64,000 nucleotides of DNA from a virus (IMGVR_UViG_3300035210_000132:92596-156595), one strand, 5' to 3'; counted from the first letter of the stretch, positions 26,203 to 30,600 are shown. Made by a program: numbers and translations. The notes: generated by a model from the sequence alone, not told the origin.

Positions 26203-26273
26203 CCGCCCGTAGCACGAAGGTCGTGCATTCGCTCGATAAGCGAAAGGAAATGGTTCAATTCCATCCGGGCGGA
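26203..26273 (+). tRNA. tRNA-Ile(GAT)-like with C33 (anticodon loop tcGATaa)
   Basis: Acceptor ccgcccg/cgggcgg, D gcac/gtgc, T atgg-TTCAATT-ccat. Positions 32-33 are 'tc' rather than 'ct'. Confidence 0.55.
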
Positions 26274-26275
26274 CC

Positions 26276-26349
26276 CTGCTAGTAGCTTAAGTAGCCAAAG
26301 CGCCAGGCTGTGGACCTGGAGAGTGCGGGTGCAAGTCCCGTCTAGCAGC
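26276..26349 (+). tRNA. tRNA-His(GTG), C73 discriminator, no encoded G-1
   Basis: Acceptor ctgctag/ctagcag, D gctt/aagc, anticodon loop ctGTGga, T gcggg-TGCAAGT-cccgt. Confidence 0.8.
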
Positions 26350-26351
26350 CC

Positions 26352-26422
26352 GGGGCCATCGTCCAGTGGGAGGACACCGGTTCGGCATACCGGAAACGGC
26401 GGTTCGAACCCGCCTGGCTCCA
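26352..26422 (+). tRNA. tRNA-Ala(GGC) with G3-U70 and C33 (anticodon loop tcGGCat)
   Basis: Acceptor ggggcca/tggctcc (G3:U70), T ggcgg-TTCGAAC-ccgcc. Confidence 0.7.
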
Positions 26423-26548
26423 CTTCTACTTATTTTAGCGGTGCGATAAAATAGCAAGAGCTGTGAGATAAGAAAAAGGTGCACCTAGTGTTGTGCACCT
26501 TTTCTTGGAGGACTCGCATTATGGCTATCAAGACTCCGCGGTAGCATA

Positions 26549-26806
26549 CTAGATAGGTTTCTCGGAGTCCCTGGCCTTCTCGAGGTCTTCTTTGATCTCA
26601 TCAAGAGGGTTCTTGAGGCGGTAGAAAAAATCCGCTAGGCGGTGGCCTTGGTTGCGTACGTTGAGCATCTCCTGCTCCACCAAACGGTGAGTCAGCTCGT
26701 CTTCCTTGATGTGGGTCGCAATCCTTTTCTCTACTTCCTGAGTGCTATTAATAAAAGCTTCCACCTCAACTAAAGCGCCGACGAGCTGCTTCTCCAGCAA
26801 GATCAT
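26549..26806 (-). CDS. hypothetical charged helical protein
   Basis: Internal ATG (MILLEKQ...). The 5' part of ORF 26549-27121 overlaps + strand tRNAs. Confidence 0.4.
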   Translation of the reverse strand: MILLEKQLVGALVEVEAFINSTQEVEKRIATHIKEDELTHRLVEQEMLNVRNQGHRLADFFYRLKNPLDEIKEDLEKARDSEKPI

Positions 26807-26928
26807 GCGCTGTTCCAGATGCTCTAGGTCGACCACAGGGCCTCCTTGCGGTATCTGGAATAATCTATCACGAGTGTAATTTCCTGCATAGGACTGGTGG
26901 TCTTGGATCCTGCACGCGTCTAGAGTAC

Positions 26929-27002
26929 GCCTGTGAGGTTCCCTGGTTGGGAACGCTGGATTGTCAATCCAGAGTGGGCGGGTTCGATTCCCGTCACAGG
27001 CG
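26929..27002 (+). tRNA. tRNA-Asp(GTC)
   Basis: Acceptor gcctgtg/cacaggc, G73, anticodon loop ttGTCaa, T-loop TTCGATT. Confidence 0.9.
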
Positions 27003-27010
27003 CCGTACTC

Positions 27011-27081
27011 GCCTCGATAGCTCAAGGGTAGAGCGCTCCGCTGAAGACGGAGAGACCACGGGTCGATACCGTGTCGGGGCA
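27011..27081 (+). tRNA. tRNA-Phe(GAA)
   Basis: Acceptor gcctcga/tcggggc, D gctc-aagggta-gagc, anticodon loop ctGAAga, T cacgg-GTCGATA-ccgtg. Confidence 0.8.
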
Positions 27082-27083
27082 CT

Positions 27084-27377
27084 ATGTGTAAGCCACCCAA
27101 AAACGACAAGCTGCTTACCATGATTCGGAACTACTGGAAGAGGCACCCCGACTGTGGCTGGGTCGGATTCCCCCTACCCCCAAGGAAACCCGTCATGCGA
27201 GAAGAAGAAAGAATCGACCGGATCCTTTCCTTGGTCCGCGACTACTGGAAGGAGCACCCTGAGATGAGGTTGACCCAGATCATCGTCAATGTGGTAAAAG
27301 GGAATCGAGAGGACATCTTCTACACAGAAGACGAAGAGGTAGAAGCCTCCTTGAGGAAGTTACTGAAGAAGCTGTAA
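27084..27377 (+). CDS. hypothetical protein (starts 2 nt after tRNA-Phe)
   Basis: ORF with Lys-rich C-terminus. Confidence 0.4.
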   Translation: MCKPPKNDKLLTMIRNYWKRHPDCGWVGFPLPPRKPVMREEERIDRILSLVRDYWKEHPEMRLTQIIVNVVKGNREDIFYTEDEEVEASLRKLLKKL

Positions 27378-27497
27378 GGAGCCCTAGCTGAAATCTCATG
27401 ACTTCGGATACGCCAAGTCCTGGCGTCAGCGAGTGGGAGCCGCAAGGCGCAGACCACTGCCGAGTCGTTGGAGCATGGCCAACCTGCTAGAGCTTCT

Positions 27498-27569
27498 GGG
27501 CCCATAGTGCCAATGGCAGCACGCTACGTTTGCACCGTAGAGGTGAGGGTTCGAGTCCCTCTGGGTCCA
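27498..27569 (+). tRNA. tRNA-Ala(TGC)
   Basis: Acceptor gggccca/tgggtcc with G3-U70, anticodon loop ttTGCac, T gaggg-TTCGAGT-ccctc. Confidence 0.9.
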
Positions 27570-27577
27570 CTAAAATT

Positions 27578-28667: not shown

Positions 28668-28833
28668 GGCCTTCCTCCTCTAGCGGATCTTCTATCGACT
28701 GCCCTTCTACTCTATCTTCAAGCTCTGCTTGGGTTTCCTGATGCTCCCTCACGACAGGGTGCCAGGAACTCTTTCTTCCTGTAGAAAAAGCCCCGTCCCT
28801 AGGCTGGTAAGAATCTGGAGTCGCCATGGACCG

Positions 28834-29004
28834 CTACCGCACTCGTCCATCCTGGTCTACCTCCAAGGGCTGTGGATCGTACTTCATTCGATCCGCTAGT
28901 TCCTCAGGGGTCTCCCTAGAAGAAGAACGCATGTGATTCTCCCTCGAGGATGGTAGAGGACTGAGGTTGTCACGAGGAAAGTCGTCGTCTTGGTCTTTCT
29001 TCAT
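28834..29004 (-). CDS. small hydrophilic protein, paralog of 28461-28667
   Basis: RBS 'ggaggg' before the internal ATG (MKKDQDDD...). 'TPEELADRMKYDPQPLEVDQDGRVR'. Confidence 0.45.
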   Translation of the reverse strand: MKKDQDDDFPRDNLSPLPSSRENHMRSSSRETPEELADRMKYDPQPLEVDQDGRVR

Positions 29005-29272
29005 GTAGACCCTCCATGAACGCAAAGAAGCACCCAACATGCCACTGCAGATCTCGCCGGTGGTACTAAGGAGAAGCCATGCAGTGTTGTGGTAGAGACA
29101 TGTCAGTCGCTGGTACCGCAGGTCAAGGGATGGGAGACATTGTATCCTGCTCCTACTGTGGGAGACGCTCCTACAACCGCCCTGACAACGTTCTGGAGTT
29201 TCGAGCGCGGGTCCTCGAAGAGAACTTGCGACTCGCGCATCAGGGTTGGTGGCAGAGGTTTCTCCGTTGGTT

Positions 29273-29346
29273 GTCTCCGTGGCCGAGAGGATGAGGCACT
29301 CGTTCCCTAAACGAGTCTAACGCAGGTTCGAGTCCTGCCGGAGGCG
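29273..29346 (+). tRNA. tRNA-Arg(CCT) with C33 (anticodon loop tcCCTaa)
   Basis: Acceptor gtctccg/cggaggc, D gcc/ggc with a 10-nt loop, T gcagg-TTCGAGT-cctgc. Confidence 0.65.
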
Positions 29347-29362
29347 CGATGTTCTCACCCGC

Positions 29363-29629
29363 ATGTATTTTCGTTGTGTTCACGGTGGTACTCCTCCTAC
29401 TCTCAGAAAGGGCAAAATGAAGTGTCTCAGCTGCGACGCAGAGACCACAGAAACGATGGAGGCACAGAACTTCCAATACGGCTGCGGTTTTGAGGCGGTC
29501 GAGTTGACGGCTCTGGTGCCACTGATCAGATGTATCGAGTGCGGGTTCGAGTTCACAGACTTCCGAGGGGAAGAGGCACGGGACAAGGCCGTATTCGATT
29601 ACCTCAAATCATTGCGGGGATGGTGCTAG
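29363..29629 (+). CDS. YgiT/MqsA-type zinc-finger protein
   Basis: 'CLSCDAETTETMEAQNFQYGCGFEAVELTALVPLIRCIECGFEF'. Confidence 0.4.
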   Translation: MYFRCVHGGTPPTLRKGKMKCLSCDAETTETMEAQNFQYGCGFEAVELTALVPLIRCIECGFEFTDFRGEEARDKAVFDYLKSLRGWC

Positions 29630-29655
29630 TTCCCAGCTCGGCCTCCAAGGAGCCC

Positions 29656-29877
29656 ATGATGAAAGGCAAACCACACGAGAGTCCTGAGTGTCTTTGTCCT
29701 GCATGCACTTCTTGGATGGAGGCGCGGCCTACTGCCCTCTGGACATGGGAGGAGTGGAAGAAGAAAGGATGCAAGATACTCTCTCCCTACCACGAGGTCG
29801 TCTTCACGACCCTGTCGAAGGAGACGTTGAAAGACGGCGAGTCGTTGGAGGTTACTTACACTATCAGCATGGGGTAG
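29656..29877 (+). CDS. small CxxC protein, paralog of the next ORF
   Basis: RBS 'aaggag'. 'MMKGKPHESPECLCPACTSWMEA'. Confidence 0.45.
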   Translation: MMKGKPHESPECLCPACTSWMEARPTALWTWEEWKKKGCKILSPYHEVVFTTLSKETLKDGESLEVTYTISMG

Positions 29878-29880
29878 ACC

Positions 29881-30093
29881 ATGAAGAACAAACCACACGG
29901 GGATCTCTCTTGTCTCTGCCCTGCCTGTGTCACCTGGATCGAAGCAGCTATACGAGAGACTCTCCAGGGCCACTACGGGGTAGCGGTCTCAGCCTTGACG
30001 ATCCAACGGATACAAGATGAGGCGGTTGAGTGTCTGTTGGAGCTGCAAGATCTTGCTATGATCAAGAACATCAAGGTTGATCTGCTTCGGTAG
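29881..30093 (+). CDS. small CxxC protein, tandem paralog
   Basis: 'MKNKPHGDLSCLCPACVTWIEA'. Confidence 0.45.
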   Translation: MKNKPHGDLSCLCPACVTWIEAAIRETLQGHYGVAVSALTIQRIQDEAVECLLELQDLAMIKNIKVDLLR

Positions 30094-30101
30094 TACCTCA
30101 C

Positions 30102-30174
30102 GGCGAGCAGCTAAGGTAGCGGGTCGCTCTCATAAGGCGACTGGCAGAGGGTTCGAGTCCCTCGTTCGCCACCA
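30102..30174 (+). tRNA. tRNA-Met/Ile2 class (CAT), compact 70-nt form, with encoded CCA overlapping the next ATG
   Basis: Acceptor ggcgagc/gttcgcc, anticodon loop ctCATaa, T gaggg-TTCGAGT-ccctc, then 'a cca|tg'. Confidence 0.65.
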
Positions 30175-30386
30175 TGAAGGGCAAGGGCAAAAAACTAGAG
30201 AGCCCCACGACGCTTACCATGACTCCTGTAGAAGCTCCCGAGATTCTACTCCAGCACCGCTGTCGTCCCAAGCCTGTAGGCCTTCTCGTCGTGAGCACCA
30301 CCCACGGCTGGAAGTTACTTGTTGGGCCTCAAGGATTTGAGATTGCCTTCTGCCCCTTCTGTGGGCGAGACTTGCCGAAGGAGTAG
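30174..30386 (+). CDS. hypothetical protein. Its ATG overlaps the CCA of tRNA(CAT).
   Basis: C-terminal 'CPFCGRDL'. No RBS. Confidence 0.4.
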   Translation: MKGKGKKLESPTTLTMTPVEAPEILLQHRCRPKPVGLLVVSTTHGWKLLVGPQGFEIAFCPFCGRDLPKE

Positions 30387-30527
30387 CTCATGTGGAAAAC
30401 CGAGCTCGTGGCTTGGCCGGTGCGCATCTTTGTGGGCTCCCTCTGGTTCGACATCATCATGCCCTGGCCGGTGACATACTTTGTCCCGGACCCCGAAGAG
30501 CAAACCACGAATCTCTTGAATTAACAC

Positions 30528-30600
30528 GCTGGGCGAGGAAGCTGGTGACTCCCTTGGTTCTACACTCCAAAGCCGCAGGGTTCGATTCCCTGGCCCAGCA
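30528..30600 (+). tRNA. tRNA-Val(TAC) with C33 (anticodon loop tcTACac) and a weak anticodon-stem closing pair
   Basis: Acceptor gctgggc/gcccagc, T caggg-TTCGATT-ccctg. Confidence 0.65.

What the first reader, a model, noticed from the sequence alone, without database searches (positions are those of the whole stretch)
26203..30600. Several tRNAs carry non-canonical anticodon loops: C33 in four, an 8-nt loop in one, and a UAU anticodon
Ile-like (tcGATaa, 26203), Ala(GGC) (tcGGCat, 26352), Arg(CCT) (tcCCTaa, 29273) and Val(TAC) (tcTACac, 30528) all have U32-C33 instead of the near-universal U33. The cloverleafs are otherwise good and Ala keeps G3-U70. The tRNA at 20264 has an 8-nt loop (acattgga) consistent with quadruplet decoding or a decoy. 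tRNA 25465 has anticodon TAT. Systematic C33 is unlikely to be random decay. It could reflect altered decoding, resistance to host anticodon nucleases, or decoy tRNAs.
Basis: seen in the sequence. Interest (0 to 1): 0.65.

Follow-up and report, generated by a model that had tools for sequence, protein, structure and literature searches.

The report
Phage tRNAs with C33 instead of U33
Four intact tRNA genes in this large phage carry a C where almost every known tRNA has a U (position 33), and the same variant recurs unremarked in many cultured phages, so it looks like a maintained feature, not decay.

Summary
Ile(GAU) 26203, Ala(GGC) 26352, Arg(CCU) 29273 and Val(UAC) 30528 all have U32-C33, and no alternative stem register restores U33. 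Three of the four are identical in an independently sequenced sample. The 8-nt loop at 20264 and the UAU anticodon at 25465 are also real; UAU is ordinary in phages.

The excess is real: 4/32 here against 4/515 in a background of phage tRNAs (P=6e-4). It is not decay. Ile, Ala and Arg have intact cloverleafs and identity elements. The only syntenic relative (L106) keeps C33 in its Val(UAC) ortholog despite six compensatory pair changes. Across 780 distinct phage tRNAs, position 33 is U 745, C 34, G 1, A 0.

C33 also occurs in cultured phages. A tRNA-Ile(GAU) family with loop CCGAUAA is found in PAK_P2, Acinetobacter phage 133, XacN1, N4-like roseophages, Stenotrophomonas phages and Lacusarx; CcrColossus has the window's loop, UCGAUAA. 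No paper I could search describes this.

Most likely these are working tRNAs whose C33 makes the anticodon loop a poor substrate for host enzymes. [quoted passage not shown] This mechanism is inferred, not shown.

The parts
26203..26275 (+). tRNA-Ile(GAU) with loop UCGAUAA (U32-C33). It reads ATC/ATT; ATC is 76% of the Ile codons in the window.
   Evidence: (49.5 bits). 20/21 stem pairs, A73, C4-G69 and C29-G41. Identical in independent contig L044. No alternative register. Codon usage.
26352..26423 (+). tRNA-Ala(GGC) with loop UCGGCAU (U32-C33), G3.U70 and A73. It reads GCC/GCT, together 64% of Ala codons.
   Evidence: (58.8 bits). Identical in L044.
29273..29347 (+). tRNA-Arg(CCU) with loop UCCCUAA (U32-C33). 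It reads AGG, which is 20% of Arg codons.
   Evidence: (47.0 bits, loop aligned in register). Identical in independent contig L118.
30528..30601 (+). Val(UAC)-type tRNA with loop UCUACAC (U32-C33). It is atypical: G8, imperfect D stem, U31.U39, and a body most like an odd-D-arm phage tRNA-Met family.
   Evidence: (below the Rfam tRNA threshold). The syntenic ortholog in L106 has loop CCUACAA with 6/21 pairs changed on both sides.
20264..20336 (+). tRNA-like gene with an 8-nt anticodon loop, ACAUUGGA, and all four stems intact. It lies between Gln(UUG) and Gln(CUG).
   Evidence: (45.9 bits). Only one other 8-nt loop was seen among about 800 phage tRNAs (L109).
25465..25540 (+). tRNA-Ile(UAU) with the canonical loop UUUAUAA. 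It reads AUA.
   Evidence: (62.7 bits). 10 of 780 distinct phage tRNAs have this anticodon.
30102..30171 (+). Weak tRNA with loop CUCAUAA (CAU anticodon) and a degenerate D arm. It is the only Met/Ile2-type candidate in the array, has canonical U33, and was missed by ARAGORN.
   Evidence: 30.2 bits.

Best explanation
The four genes are genuine phage elongator tRNAs. Three are structurally intact; Val is atypical. In each, U33 has been replaced by C, and the change is kept by selection rather than reflecting decay. A pyrimidine at position 33 is enough for the anticodon loop to work, so these tRNAs still decode; they include the readers of the phage's commonest Ile and Ala codons. The most likely benefit is that C33 makes the loop a poor substrate for host enzymes that read or cut next to U33. 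For the two ANN-decoding members, Ile(GAU) and Arg(CCU), the proposed chain has four steps. (1) C33 blocks t6A37 synthesis by the bacterial TsaBCDE complex. (2) Without t6A37 the tRNA loses a positive determinant for PrrC-type HEPN anticodon nucleases. (3) C33 cannot form the cross-loop U33.A37 pair that t6A normally prevents, which softens the structural cost of losing t6A. (4) The phage keeps a supply of these tRNAs when host copies are destroyed. Shown here: the sequences are real, the excess is real, the structures are intact, one ortholog conserves C33, the variant recurs across phages, and only pyrimidines occur at position 33. Shown in the literature for other tRNAs: steps 1 and 2. Inferred: that this applies to these tRNAs and this unknown host, and that some related effect explains the non-ANN members Ala(GGC) and Val(UAC).
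For: The sequences are real and the register is fixed, and three of four are identical in a second sample. The excess over background is significant. Ile, Ala and Arg have intact cloverleafs and identity elements. The L106 Val ortholog keeps C33 with 6/21 pairs changed on both sides and 93% of cells paired, against at most 3 such pairs in slid controls. Across 780 distinct phage tRNAs, position 33 is U 745, C 34, G 1, A 0, and ARAGORN shows no detection bias between C, A and G. C33 is concentrated in certain arrays: 36 of 40 arrays with at least 10 tRNAs have none, while L109 has 5/35, Lacusarx 3/24 and CcrColossus 3/24. Eight C33 tRNA-Ile(GAU) genes from seven phage lineages have 167/168 stem positions paired. 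The CCGAUAA family occurs in unrelated phage taxa. The C33 tRNAs serve heavily used codons. From the literature: EcTsaBCDE cannot modify a U33C tRNA (PMC8887486); t6A is a positive determinant for PrrC, and t6A prevents U33-A37 pairing (PMC13602947); PrrC cuts 3' of U33; the HEPN defence nuclease HepS targets tRNA-Ile(GAU) and tRNA-Thr; CdiA-CT EC536 cuts tRNA-Ile(GAU) between C32 and U33; and phage tRNAs escaping nucleases through anticodon stem-loop substitutions is an established idea.
Against: No experiment shows that C33 protects any tRNA. Gamma-toxin and colicin E5 cut U33C substrates normally, and AriB cuts at 40/41 regardless of modification. The TsaBCDE result comes from E. coli initiator tRNA in vitro. 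t6A37 is reported as a positive determinant for aminoacylation of tRNA-Ile (section heading seen), so losing it would carry a cost. Excluding Ile(GAU), C33 is not enriched in ANN-decoders (P=0.48), so the t6A route cannot explain Ala, Val, Leu, Pro, His or Glu. The tRNA types affected differ between phages, and only about 12% of the array is C33, which fits weak or nearly neutral selection as well. In Erythrobacter phage L02, a tRNA-Ile(GAU) resembling Lacusarx's C33 copy has U33, so the state is not fixed. The host is unknown, no nuclease or tRNA-repair gene is linked in the window, and only one true ortholog of any of the four could be found.
Confidence: 0.45

Rival explanations
1. C33 is a nearly neutral, tolerated variant. 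C works almost as well as U at position 33, phage tRNAs are partly redundant with host tRNAs, and U-to-C transitions therefore drift in and persist without any benefit, while purines are removed by selection.
For: Only pyrimidines occur at position 33. The tRNA types affected differ between phages. Only about 12% of the array is affected. The state switches between related phages: L004 and L005 differ at Leu(UAG), and Lacusarx and L02 differ at Ile(GAU). Two nucleases treat C33 like U33. Eukaryotic initiator tRNAs work with C33.
Against: C33 is near zero in most phage arrays (36 of 40) but 12-14% in a few. The CCGAUAA tRNA-Ile family is conserved across unrelated phage taxa, and in several of them it is the only non-U33 tRNA, which is hard to explain by drift. 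No tRNA with the window's Ile(GAU) arm and C33 was found in representative genomes of about 185,000 species.
Confidence: 0.3
2. The C33 tRNAs have a changed or non-translational role: altered decoding such as wobble or frameshift effects, decoys that soak up a host nuclease, or substrates for another tRNA-dependent process. This would apply mainly to the atypical Val(UAC) gene and the 8-nt-loop gene.
For: Val(UAC) has G8, an odd D arm and U31.U39, scores below the Rfam tRNA threshold, and its oddities are shared by its L106 ortholog. Its body resembles an unusual phage tRNA-Met family. The 8-nt-loop gene is structurally intact but cannot decode normally. L109 shows the same pairing of several C33 tRNAs with one 8-nt-loop tRNA.
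Against: Ile, Ala and Arg look like ordinary aminoacylatable tRNAs with correct identity elements, and they match the phage's commonest codons. No evidence here bears directly on decoding or decoy activity.
Confidence: 0.12
3. The genes are decaying tRNA pseudogenes.
For: The C33 genes score at or below the array's median on the Rfam model, and Val fails the threshold. Ile has one A.C mismatch in the T stem.
Against: Stems are intact: 20/21 pairs for Ile, and full cloverleafs for Ala and Arg. Identity elements are kept. There are compensatory changes with C33 retained in L106. The non-U33 set almost entirely lacks purines at position 33. The same variant occurs in pristine tRNAs of cultured phages.
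Confidence: 0.06
4. C33 is converted back to U33 in the RNA by C-to-U editing, so the mature tRNAs are canonical.
For: tRNA C-to-U editing exists in other systems (my own knowledge). The contig encodes a CDA-fold deaminase at about 42477-42932.
Against: That deaminase is a ComEB-type dCMP deaminase (E=9e-39, against 8e-7 for TadA). No editing at position 33 is known. The trait occurs in many unrelated phages and hosts.
Confidence: 0.03

Closest known systems
Phage tRNAs with anticodon stem-loop substitutions proposed or shown to evade host tRNA nucleases (van den Berg et al. 2023, eLife; T5 tRNA-Lys/Thr/Asn against PARIS AriB)
   Same: These are phage-encoded tRNAs in a large array that differ from the bacterial norm inside the anticodon loop, next to known nuclease cut sites (32/33 for CdiA-CT EC536, 33/34 for PrrC).
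   Different: The published cases involve positions 37-41 or the cleavage site of a defined nuclease in a defined host. Position 33 is never discussed, the host and nuclease here are unknown, and escape is not shown.
The conserved phage tRNA-Ile(GAU) family with loop CCGAUAA, found here in PAK_P2, Acinetobacter phage 133, XacN1, DFL12phi1, Sulfitobacter AX, Ruegeria V13, Stenotrophomonas Yut2/Moby and Lacusarx, all annotated simply as tRNA-Ile
   Same: Same anticodon and same C33, a perfect cloverleaf, and location in a phage tRNA array. CcrColossus has the identical loop, UCGAUAA.
   Different: The window's gene has U32 rather than C32 and is not a sequence relative of the family (0.57 identity to Lacusarx). 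It is therefore a separate occurrence of the same variant.
C33 initiator tRNA-Met of multicellular eukaryotes
   Same: A natural, functional tRNA with C33. It shows that C33 is compatible with ribosome function and that C33 acts as an anti-determinant for bacterial and yeast t6A enzymes.
   Different: Those are initiators acting in the ribosomal P site. The window's genes are elongator types (Ile, Ala, Arg, Val) without initiator features.
Frameshift-suppressor tRNAs with 8-nt anticodon loops (sufD/sufA6 type; my own knowledge)
   Same: The 20264 gene has an 8-nt loop in an otherwise intact cloverleaf.
   Different: Classical suppressors keep U33 and repeat an anticodon base. This loop, ACAUUGGA, has no U at loop position 2 and no clear quadruplet logic. 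Function was not tested.
tRNA-Ile(UAU), an AUA decoder
   Same: 25465 has a canonical loop with anticodon UAU.
   Different: Nothing is unusual: it is a regular member of phage arrays (10/780) and has U33.

Membership tests
Canonical elongator tRNA (Rfam RF00005 cloverleaf) | Cloverleaf with acceptor, D, anticodon and T stems, scoring above the Rfam gathering threshold | tested here: met
   Ile 49.5, Ala 58.8 and Arg 47.0 bits. Val is the exception, with a best clan hit of 25.7 bits as tRNA-Sec.
Canonical elongator tRNA (Rfam RF00005 cloverleaf) | U at position 33 of a 7-nt anticodon loop | tested here: not met
   C33 in all four, and no alternative register restores U33. The 20264 gene has an 8-nt loop.
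Canonical elongator tRNA (Rfam RF00005 cloverleaf) | Identity elements for the cognate synthetase | tested here: met
   Read from sequence and judged against E. coli identity rules (my own knowledge). Ala: G3.U70 and A73. Ile: A73, C4-G69, C29-G41, U36-A37-A38. Arg: C35, U36, G73. Val: A35, C36, A73.
Nuclease-evading phage tRNA variants | Phage-encoded and located in a tRNA array | tested here: met
   32-33 tRNAs in a genome that encodes rIIA/rIIB.
Nuclease-evading phage tRNA variants | Differs from the host's cognate tRNA at the nuclease's recognition or cleavage site | not testable with these tools
   The host is unknown; the only hint is homology of the MVP-like gene to Kofleriaceae MAGs. 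C33 does adjoin the PrrC (33/34) and CdiA-CT EC536 (32/33) cut sites.
Nuclease-evading phage tRNA variants | Demonstrated resistance to cleavage, or rescue of infection | not testable with these tools
   This needs biochemistry or genetics. Published data for gamma-toxin and colicin E5 show no protection by C33.
Phage tRNA-Ile(GAU) CCGAUAA family | GAU anticodon with C33 in an intact cloverleaf | tested here: met
   Loop TCGATAA with 20/21 stem pairs.
Phage tRNA-Ile(GAU) CCGAUAA family | C32 plus the conserved CGA-CCGAUAA-UCG arm, and sequence relatedness of the tRNA body | tested here: not met
   The window has U32 and the arm ttcgc/gcgaa, and is only 0.57 identical to Lacusarx.
tRNA pseudogene | Disrupted stems, lost identity elements, and decay in relatives | tested here: not met
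   Not met for Ile, Ala and Arg. Val has defects, but its ortholog is maintained with compensatory changes, so Val alone is inconclusive.
8-nt-loop frameshift-suppressor tRNA | 8-nt anticodon loop | tested here: met
   The 20264 gene has loop ACATTGGA closed by ccagc/gctgg.
8-nt-loop frameshift-suppressor tRNA | U33 retained, with an extra base extending the anticodon; quadruplet decoding | tested here: not met
   Loop position 2 is C and no anticodon base is repeated. Decoding itself cannot be tested here.
Eukaryote-type C33 initiator tRNA | CAU anticodon and initiator-specific features | tested here: not met
   The anticodons are GAU, GGC, CCU and UAC, and the acceptor 1-72 pairs are intact.

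The most novel reading that the evidence does not exclude
C33 marks a previously undescribed functional class of phage tRNAs that cannot be modified with t6A37 by the host and thereby resist t6A-dependent or U33-dependent anticodon nucleases. The clearest example is the tRNA-Ile(GAU) family with loop CCGAUAA, which is spread across T4-like, N4-like, PAK_P1-like, jumbo and sipho-type phages. C33 would block host TsaBCDE, remove the PrrC/HepS-type recognition determinant, and avoid the U33.A37 cross-loop pair. The window would then be a phage that has extended this strategy to four tRNAs.
Probability: 0.3. Interest if true: 0.8.

Novelty: new variant of a known kind. Interest (0 to 1): 0.6.

Why it matters
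U33 is one of the most conserved nucleotides in biology. Elongator tRNAs with C33 that read a phage's commonest Ile and Ala codons, and a C33 tRNA-Ile family sitting unremarked in many sequenced phages, including therapeutic Pseudomonas phages and T4-like and N4-like model phages, would interest both tRNA biologists and the phage-defence field. If C33 makes a tRNA invisible to host modification enzymes or nucleases, it would be a one-nucleotide counter-defence. It would also mark which tRNAs hosts attack and give a design rule for nuclease-proof tRNAs. Because cultured phage-host pairs carry the variant, the idea can be tested directly. If C33 turns out to be merely tolerated, that still revises how strict the U33 rule is.

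Tried and rejected
Assembly error: rejected, because three of four sites are identical in a second sample.

Alternative stem registers: none restores U33.

C-to-U editing by the contig's deaminase: rejected, because it is a ComEB-type dCMP deaminase.

Clustering of the four genes within the array: not significant (P=0.07), so I do not claim it.

U32-C33 as a general signature: rejected. Elsewhere C32-C33 is commoner (20 C, 12 U at position 32).

Anchors used to look for relatives:
- rIIB found nothing.
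- The 202-aa ORF at 25559 is a promiscuous gene found in unrelated contexts.
- The 141-aa ORF at 27662 is an ORFan.
- Most homologs of the MVP-like ORF lie in tRNA-poor phages or Kofleriaceae MAGs. Only L106 was syntenic.

Pattern and similarity searches:
- The Arg(CCU) and Ala(GGC) arm patterns gave no IMG/VR hits.
- The arms of L109's C33 tRNAs have no relatives in IMG/VR, and its array has no match in GenBank phages.
- GenBank phages hold no orthologs of the window's tRNAs.
- The bacterial genome scan for the Ile arm with C33 gave 17 hits, equal to the chance expectation, and none lies in a tRNA.

Other checks:
- The promoter and terminator scan was uninformative.
- Pfam scans found no tRNA-repair or tRNA-modification genes in the window.
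- Enrichment of C33 in ANN-decoders is significant only because of Ile(GAU).
- An early tRNA identity comparison was invalid because sequences were truncated at 50 nt. It was redone correctly.

Full report
WHAT IS THERE. The window is almost all of a 64.4-kb contig (Logan SRR10968280_30670). It comes from a large phage encoding rIIA/rIIB at about 56% GC, with no close relative in GenBank phages. ARAGORN finds 32 tRNA genes, all on the + strand, between 18611 and 39889. Rfam confirms 28 of them and adds a weak one at 30102-30171 with a CAU anticodon.

- Ile(GAU) 26203: UCGAUAA
- Ala(GGC) 26352: UCGGCAU
- Arg(CCU) 29273: UCCCUAA
- Val(UAC) 30528: UCUACAC
- 20264: an 8-nt loop, ACAUUGGA
- 25465: anticodon UAU in a canonical loop

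Rfam's covariance model aligns Ile, Ala and Arg in the same register. An exhaustive search for alternative 7-nt loops closed by at least 3 bp finds none with U at loop position 2. Two JGI contigs from a different sample are 100% and 99.97% identical across Ile, Ala and Arg. The C33 sites are therefore real sequence and not assembly artefacts.

IS IT MORE THAN CHANCE. I used the anticodon arm of the window's Ile(GAU), with positions 32-33 left free, to scan IMG/VR. All 52 phage tRNA-Ile(GAU) genes sharing that arm have U33. The loci retrieved by then, from that scan and the earlier anchor-protein searches, gave a background of 515 distinct phage tRNAs with 7-nt loops. Four of them have C33, none has U32-C33, and none has an 8-nt loop. 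The window's 4/32 is a significant excess (Fisher P=5.8e-4), and remains so at P=0.011 against a later pooled set that includes C33-rich arrays. The apparent clustering of the four genes within the array is not significant (P=0.07).

DECAY OR MAINTAINED. Ile, Ala and Arg have intact stems and the expected identity elements, including Ala G3.U70. Val is atypical, with G8, an imperfect D stem, U31.U39 and a sub-threshold Rfam score.

True relatives were hard to find, and most anchor genes failed (see Tried and rejected). One contig, L106 (Logan SRR24579363), is syntenic. Its gene order is Val(UAC), Leu(UAG), MVP-like gene (64% identical), Leu(GAG). Its Val ortholog also has C33 (loop CCUACAA). 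Between the two Val genes, 6 of 21 pairs changed on both sides while 93% of cells stay paired, against at most 3 such pairs in slid controls. L106's Leu(GAG) has C33 as well.

Across every phage tRNA I gathered (780 distinct sequences with 7-nt loops), position 33 is U 745, C 34, G 1, A 0. ARAGORN detects in-silico C33, A33 and G33 mutants equally well, at 29 of 31 each. The near-absence of purines is therefore a real constraint, which is what working tRNAs would show and pseudogenes would not. The C33 tRNAs read heavily used codons: ATC is 76% of Ile codons, GCC plus GCT is 64% of Ala codons, and AGG is 20% of Arg codons.

THE TRAIT IS NOT UNIQUE TO THIS GENOME. C33 is concentrated in certain arrays. 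Of 40 arrays with at least 10 tRNAs, 36 have none, while the uncultured 168-kb contig behind L109 has 5 C33 among 35 tRNAs plus one 8-nt-loop tRNA, the same profile as the window.

Cultured phages carry the variant too, annotated as ordinary tRNAs:
- Sphingobium phage Lacusarx, 3/24: Ile GAU, Leu GAG, His GUG. Its paper does not mention loop sequence.
- Caulobacter phage CcrColossus, 3/24, including Ile(GAU) with the window's exact loop UCGAUAA.
- Stenotrophomonas phages Yut2 and Moby, 2/20 each.

A tRNA-Ile(GAU) with loop CCGAUAA is the only non-U33 tRNA in Pseudomonas phage PAK_P2, the T4-like Acinetobacter phage 133, Xanthomonas jumbo phage XacN1 (within the stretch examined), and the N4-like phages DFL12phi1, Sulfitobacter AX and Ruegeria V13. 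A blastn search with the Lacusarx copy matches 200 GenBank phage records, including 84 Pseudomonas phages, although some of these matches are to other tRNA types. Eight C33 Ile(GAU) genes from seven lineages have 167 of 168 stem positions paired.

The window's Ile gene is not a sequence relative of that family (0.57 identity), so it is an independent occurrence. The Ile(GAU) figure of 12 C33 among 43 distinct genes is biased upward, because the cultured examples were found by similarity to a C33 gene. No representative genome of about 185,000 bacterial and archaeal species has the window's Ile arm with C33 inside a tRNA.

HOW IT MIGHT WORK. Published mutagenesis argues against a simple shield against any nuclease: gamma-toxin and colicin E5 cut U33C substrates like wild type, and PARIS AriB cuts at 40/41.

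Other data suggest a specific route for ANN-decoding tRNAs:
- E. coli TsaBCDE cannot place t6A37 on a U33C tRNA.
- One role of t6A is to prevent a U33.A37 cross-loop pair, which C33 cannot form.
- Defence or toxin nucleases aimed at tRNA-Ile(GAU) exist: HepS and CdiA-CT EC536, which cuts between C32 and U33.

I therefore favour the view that C33 tRNAs are working decoders that host anticodon-loop enzymes handle poorly. This is inference. It does not explain the non-ANN members (Ala, Val here; Leu, Pro, His, Glu elsewhere), and once Ile(GAU) is excluded there is no ANN enrichment. The main rival is that C33 is simply tolerated.

The window encodes no tRNA-modification or RNA-repair enzyme, and its CDA-fold deaminase is a dCMP deaminase. 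The host is unknown. The only hint is that the MVP-like gene's nearest homologs are in Kofleriaceae (Myxococcota) MAGs.

THE OTHER TWO ITEMS. tRNA-Ile(UAU) is ordinary in phage arrays (10 of 780). The 8-nt-loop gene at 20264 is a good tRNA body (45.9 bits, all stems intact). Its loop lacks U at position 2 and has no obvious quadruplet logic. Only one other 8-nt loop was seen among about 800 phage tRNAs (L109). Its function is unresolved.

NOVELTY. The idea that phage tRNAs carry anticodon-loop changes to escape host nucleases is published. Position 33 is not discussed there or in any paper I could search, although one C33 tRNA-His variant sits in that paper's supplement. I cannot exclude subscription literature. 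I rate this a new variant of a known kind. It is of moderate to high interest because the variant touches a near-universal nucleotide, is widespread, and can be tested directly in cultured phages.

Noticed in passing
window 30102-30171 (+): A weak tRNA (Rfam 30.2 bits) with loop CUCAUAA, so a CAU anticodon, and a degenerate D arm. ARAGORN missed it. It is the only Met/Ile2-type tRNA candidate in the array.
   Followed up: partly
window 8886-10294 (+): A group I intron (Rfam RF00028, 9361-9634) appears to split a ThyX gene. The downstream ORF 9620-10294 matches the C-terminal part of Thy1, and the ORF at 8886-9542 contains an HNH_3 endonuclease domain.
   Followed up: partly
window 30710-33361 (+): An 883-aa ORF with major-vault-protein shoulder and repeat domains sits inside the tRNA array. 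Its nearest homologs (55-64% identity) are in other large phages, the 460-735 kb huge phages LR756500/1/3, and many Kofleriaceae/Myxococcota MAGs. This may be a host clue or a sign of gene transfer.
   Followed up: partly
window 23683-25415: A NUDIX hydrolase ORF (23683-24129, +) and a GGDEF-domain ORF (24537-25415, -) lie embedded between tRNA genes. In the second sample's contig the GGDEF gene is called at 205 aa rather than 292 aa, although the DNA is identical.
   Followed up: no
window 3182-4621 (-): A 479-aa ORF combines a LigD-type 3'-phosphoesterase domain with ATP-dependent ligase and OB domains. It is probably a DNA ligase, but the end-healing plus sealing arrangement could also act on broken RNA.
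   Followed up: no
window 26203-26423 (+): Ile(GAU), His(GUG) and Ala(GGC) abut with essentially no spacer (the ARAGORN ends and starts are consecutive). That implies one transcript with tight processing. Most tRNAs in the array lack an encoded CCA.
   Followed up: no
window 30528-30601; L109 9580-9655(c); L111 1490-1565(c): The window's Val(UAC) resembles an odd-D-arm phage tRNA-Met(CAU) family (0.72-0.76 identity) more than any Val tRNA, sharing a near-identical T arm and acceptor. This suggests an anticodon switch from a Met-type ancestor.
   Followed up: partly
L106 388-463 and 3195-3271: In the syntenic relative, the Leu(UAG) and Leu(GAG) tRNAs are only 76-77 nt long and lack the long variable arm that normally defines tRNA-Leu.
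   Followed up: no
L109 7594-7669 (c): A second example of an 8-nt anticodon loop (CGCAGAAG) in a phage array that also has five C33 tRNAs. The co-occurrence matches the window.
   Followed up: partly
L137 (Erythrobacter phage vB_EliS-L02) 3843-3920 and 5693-5769: tRNA-Glu(UUC) with G33 (loop TGTTCAA) is the only purine at position 33 seen in 780 tRNAs. The same phage has a tRNA-Ile(GAU) with U at position 37 (loop CTGATTA).
   Followed up: no
L136 (Sphingobium phage Lacusarx) 25688-31654: A tmRNA, a TadA-like tRNA deaminase and an RtcB RNA ligase lie just downstream of a tRNA array containing three C33 tRNAs. This would fit a phage equipped for conflict over tRNA integrity.
   Followed up: no
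L139 (Caulobacter phage CcrColossus) 8005-8082, 15117-15276: The GenBank record labels a C33 tRNA-Pro(CGG) as tRNA-OTHER. The phage also carries two adjacent tRNA-Ile(GAU) copies, one with C33 and one with U33, which would make a natural matched pair for experiments.
   Followed up: no
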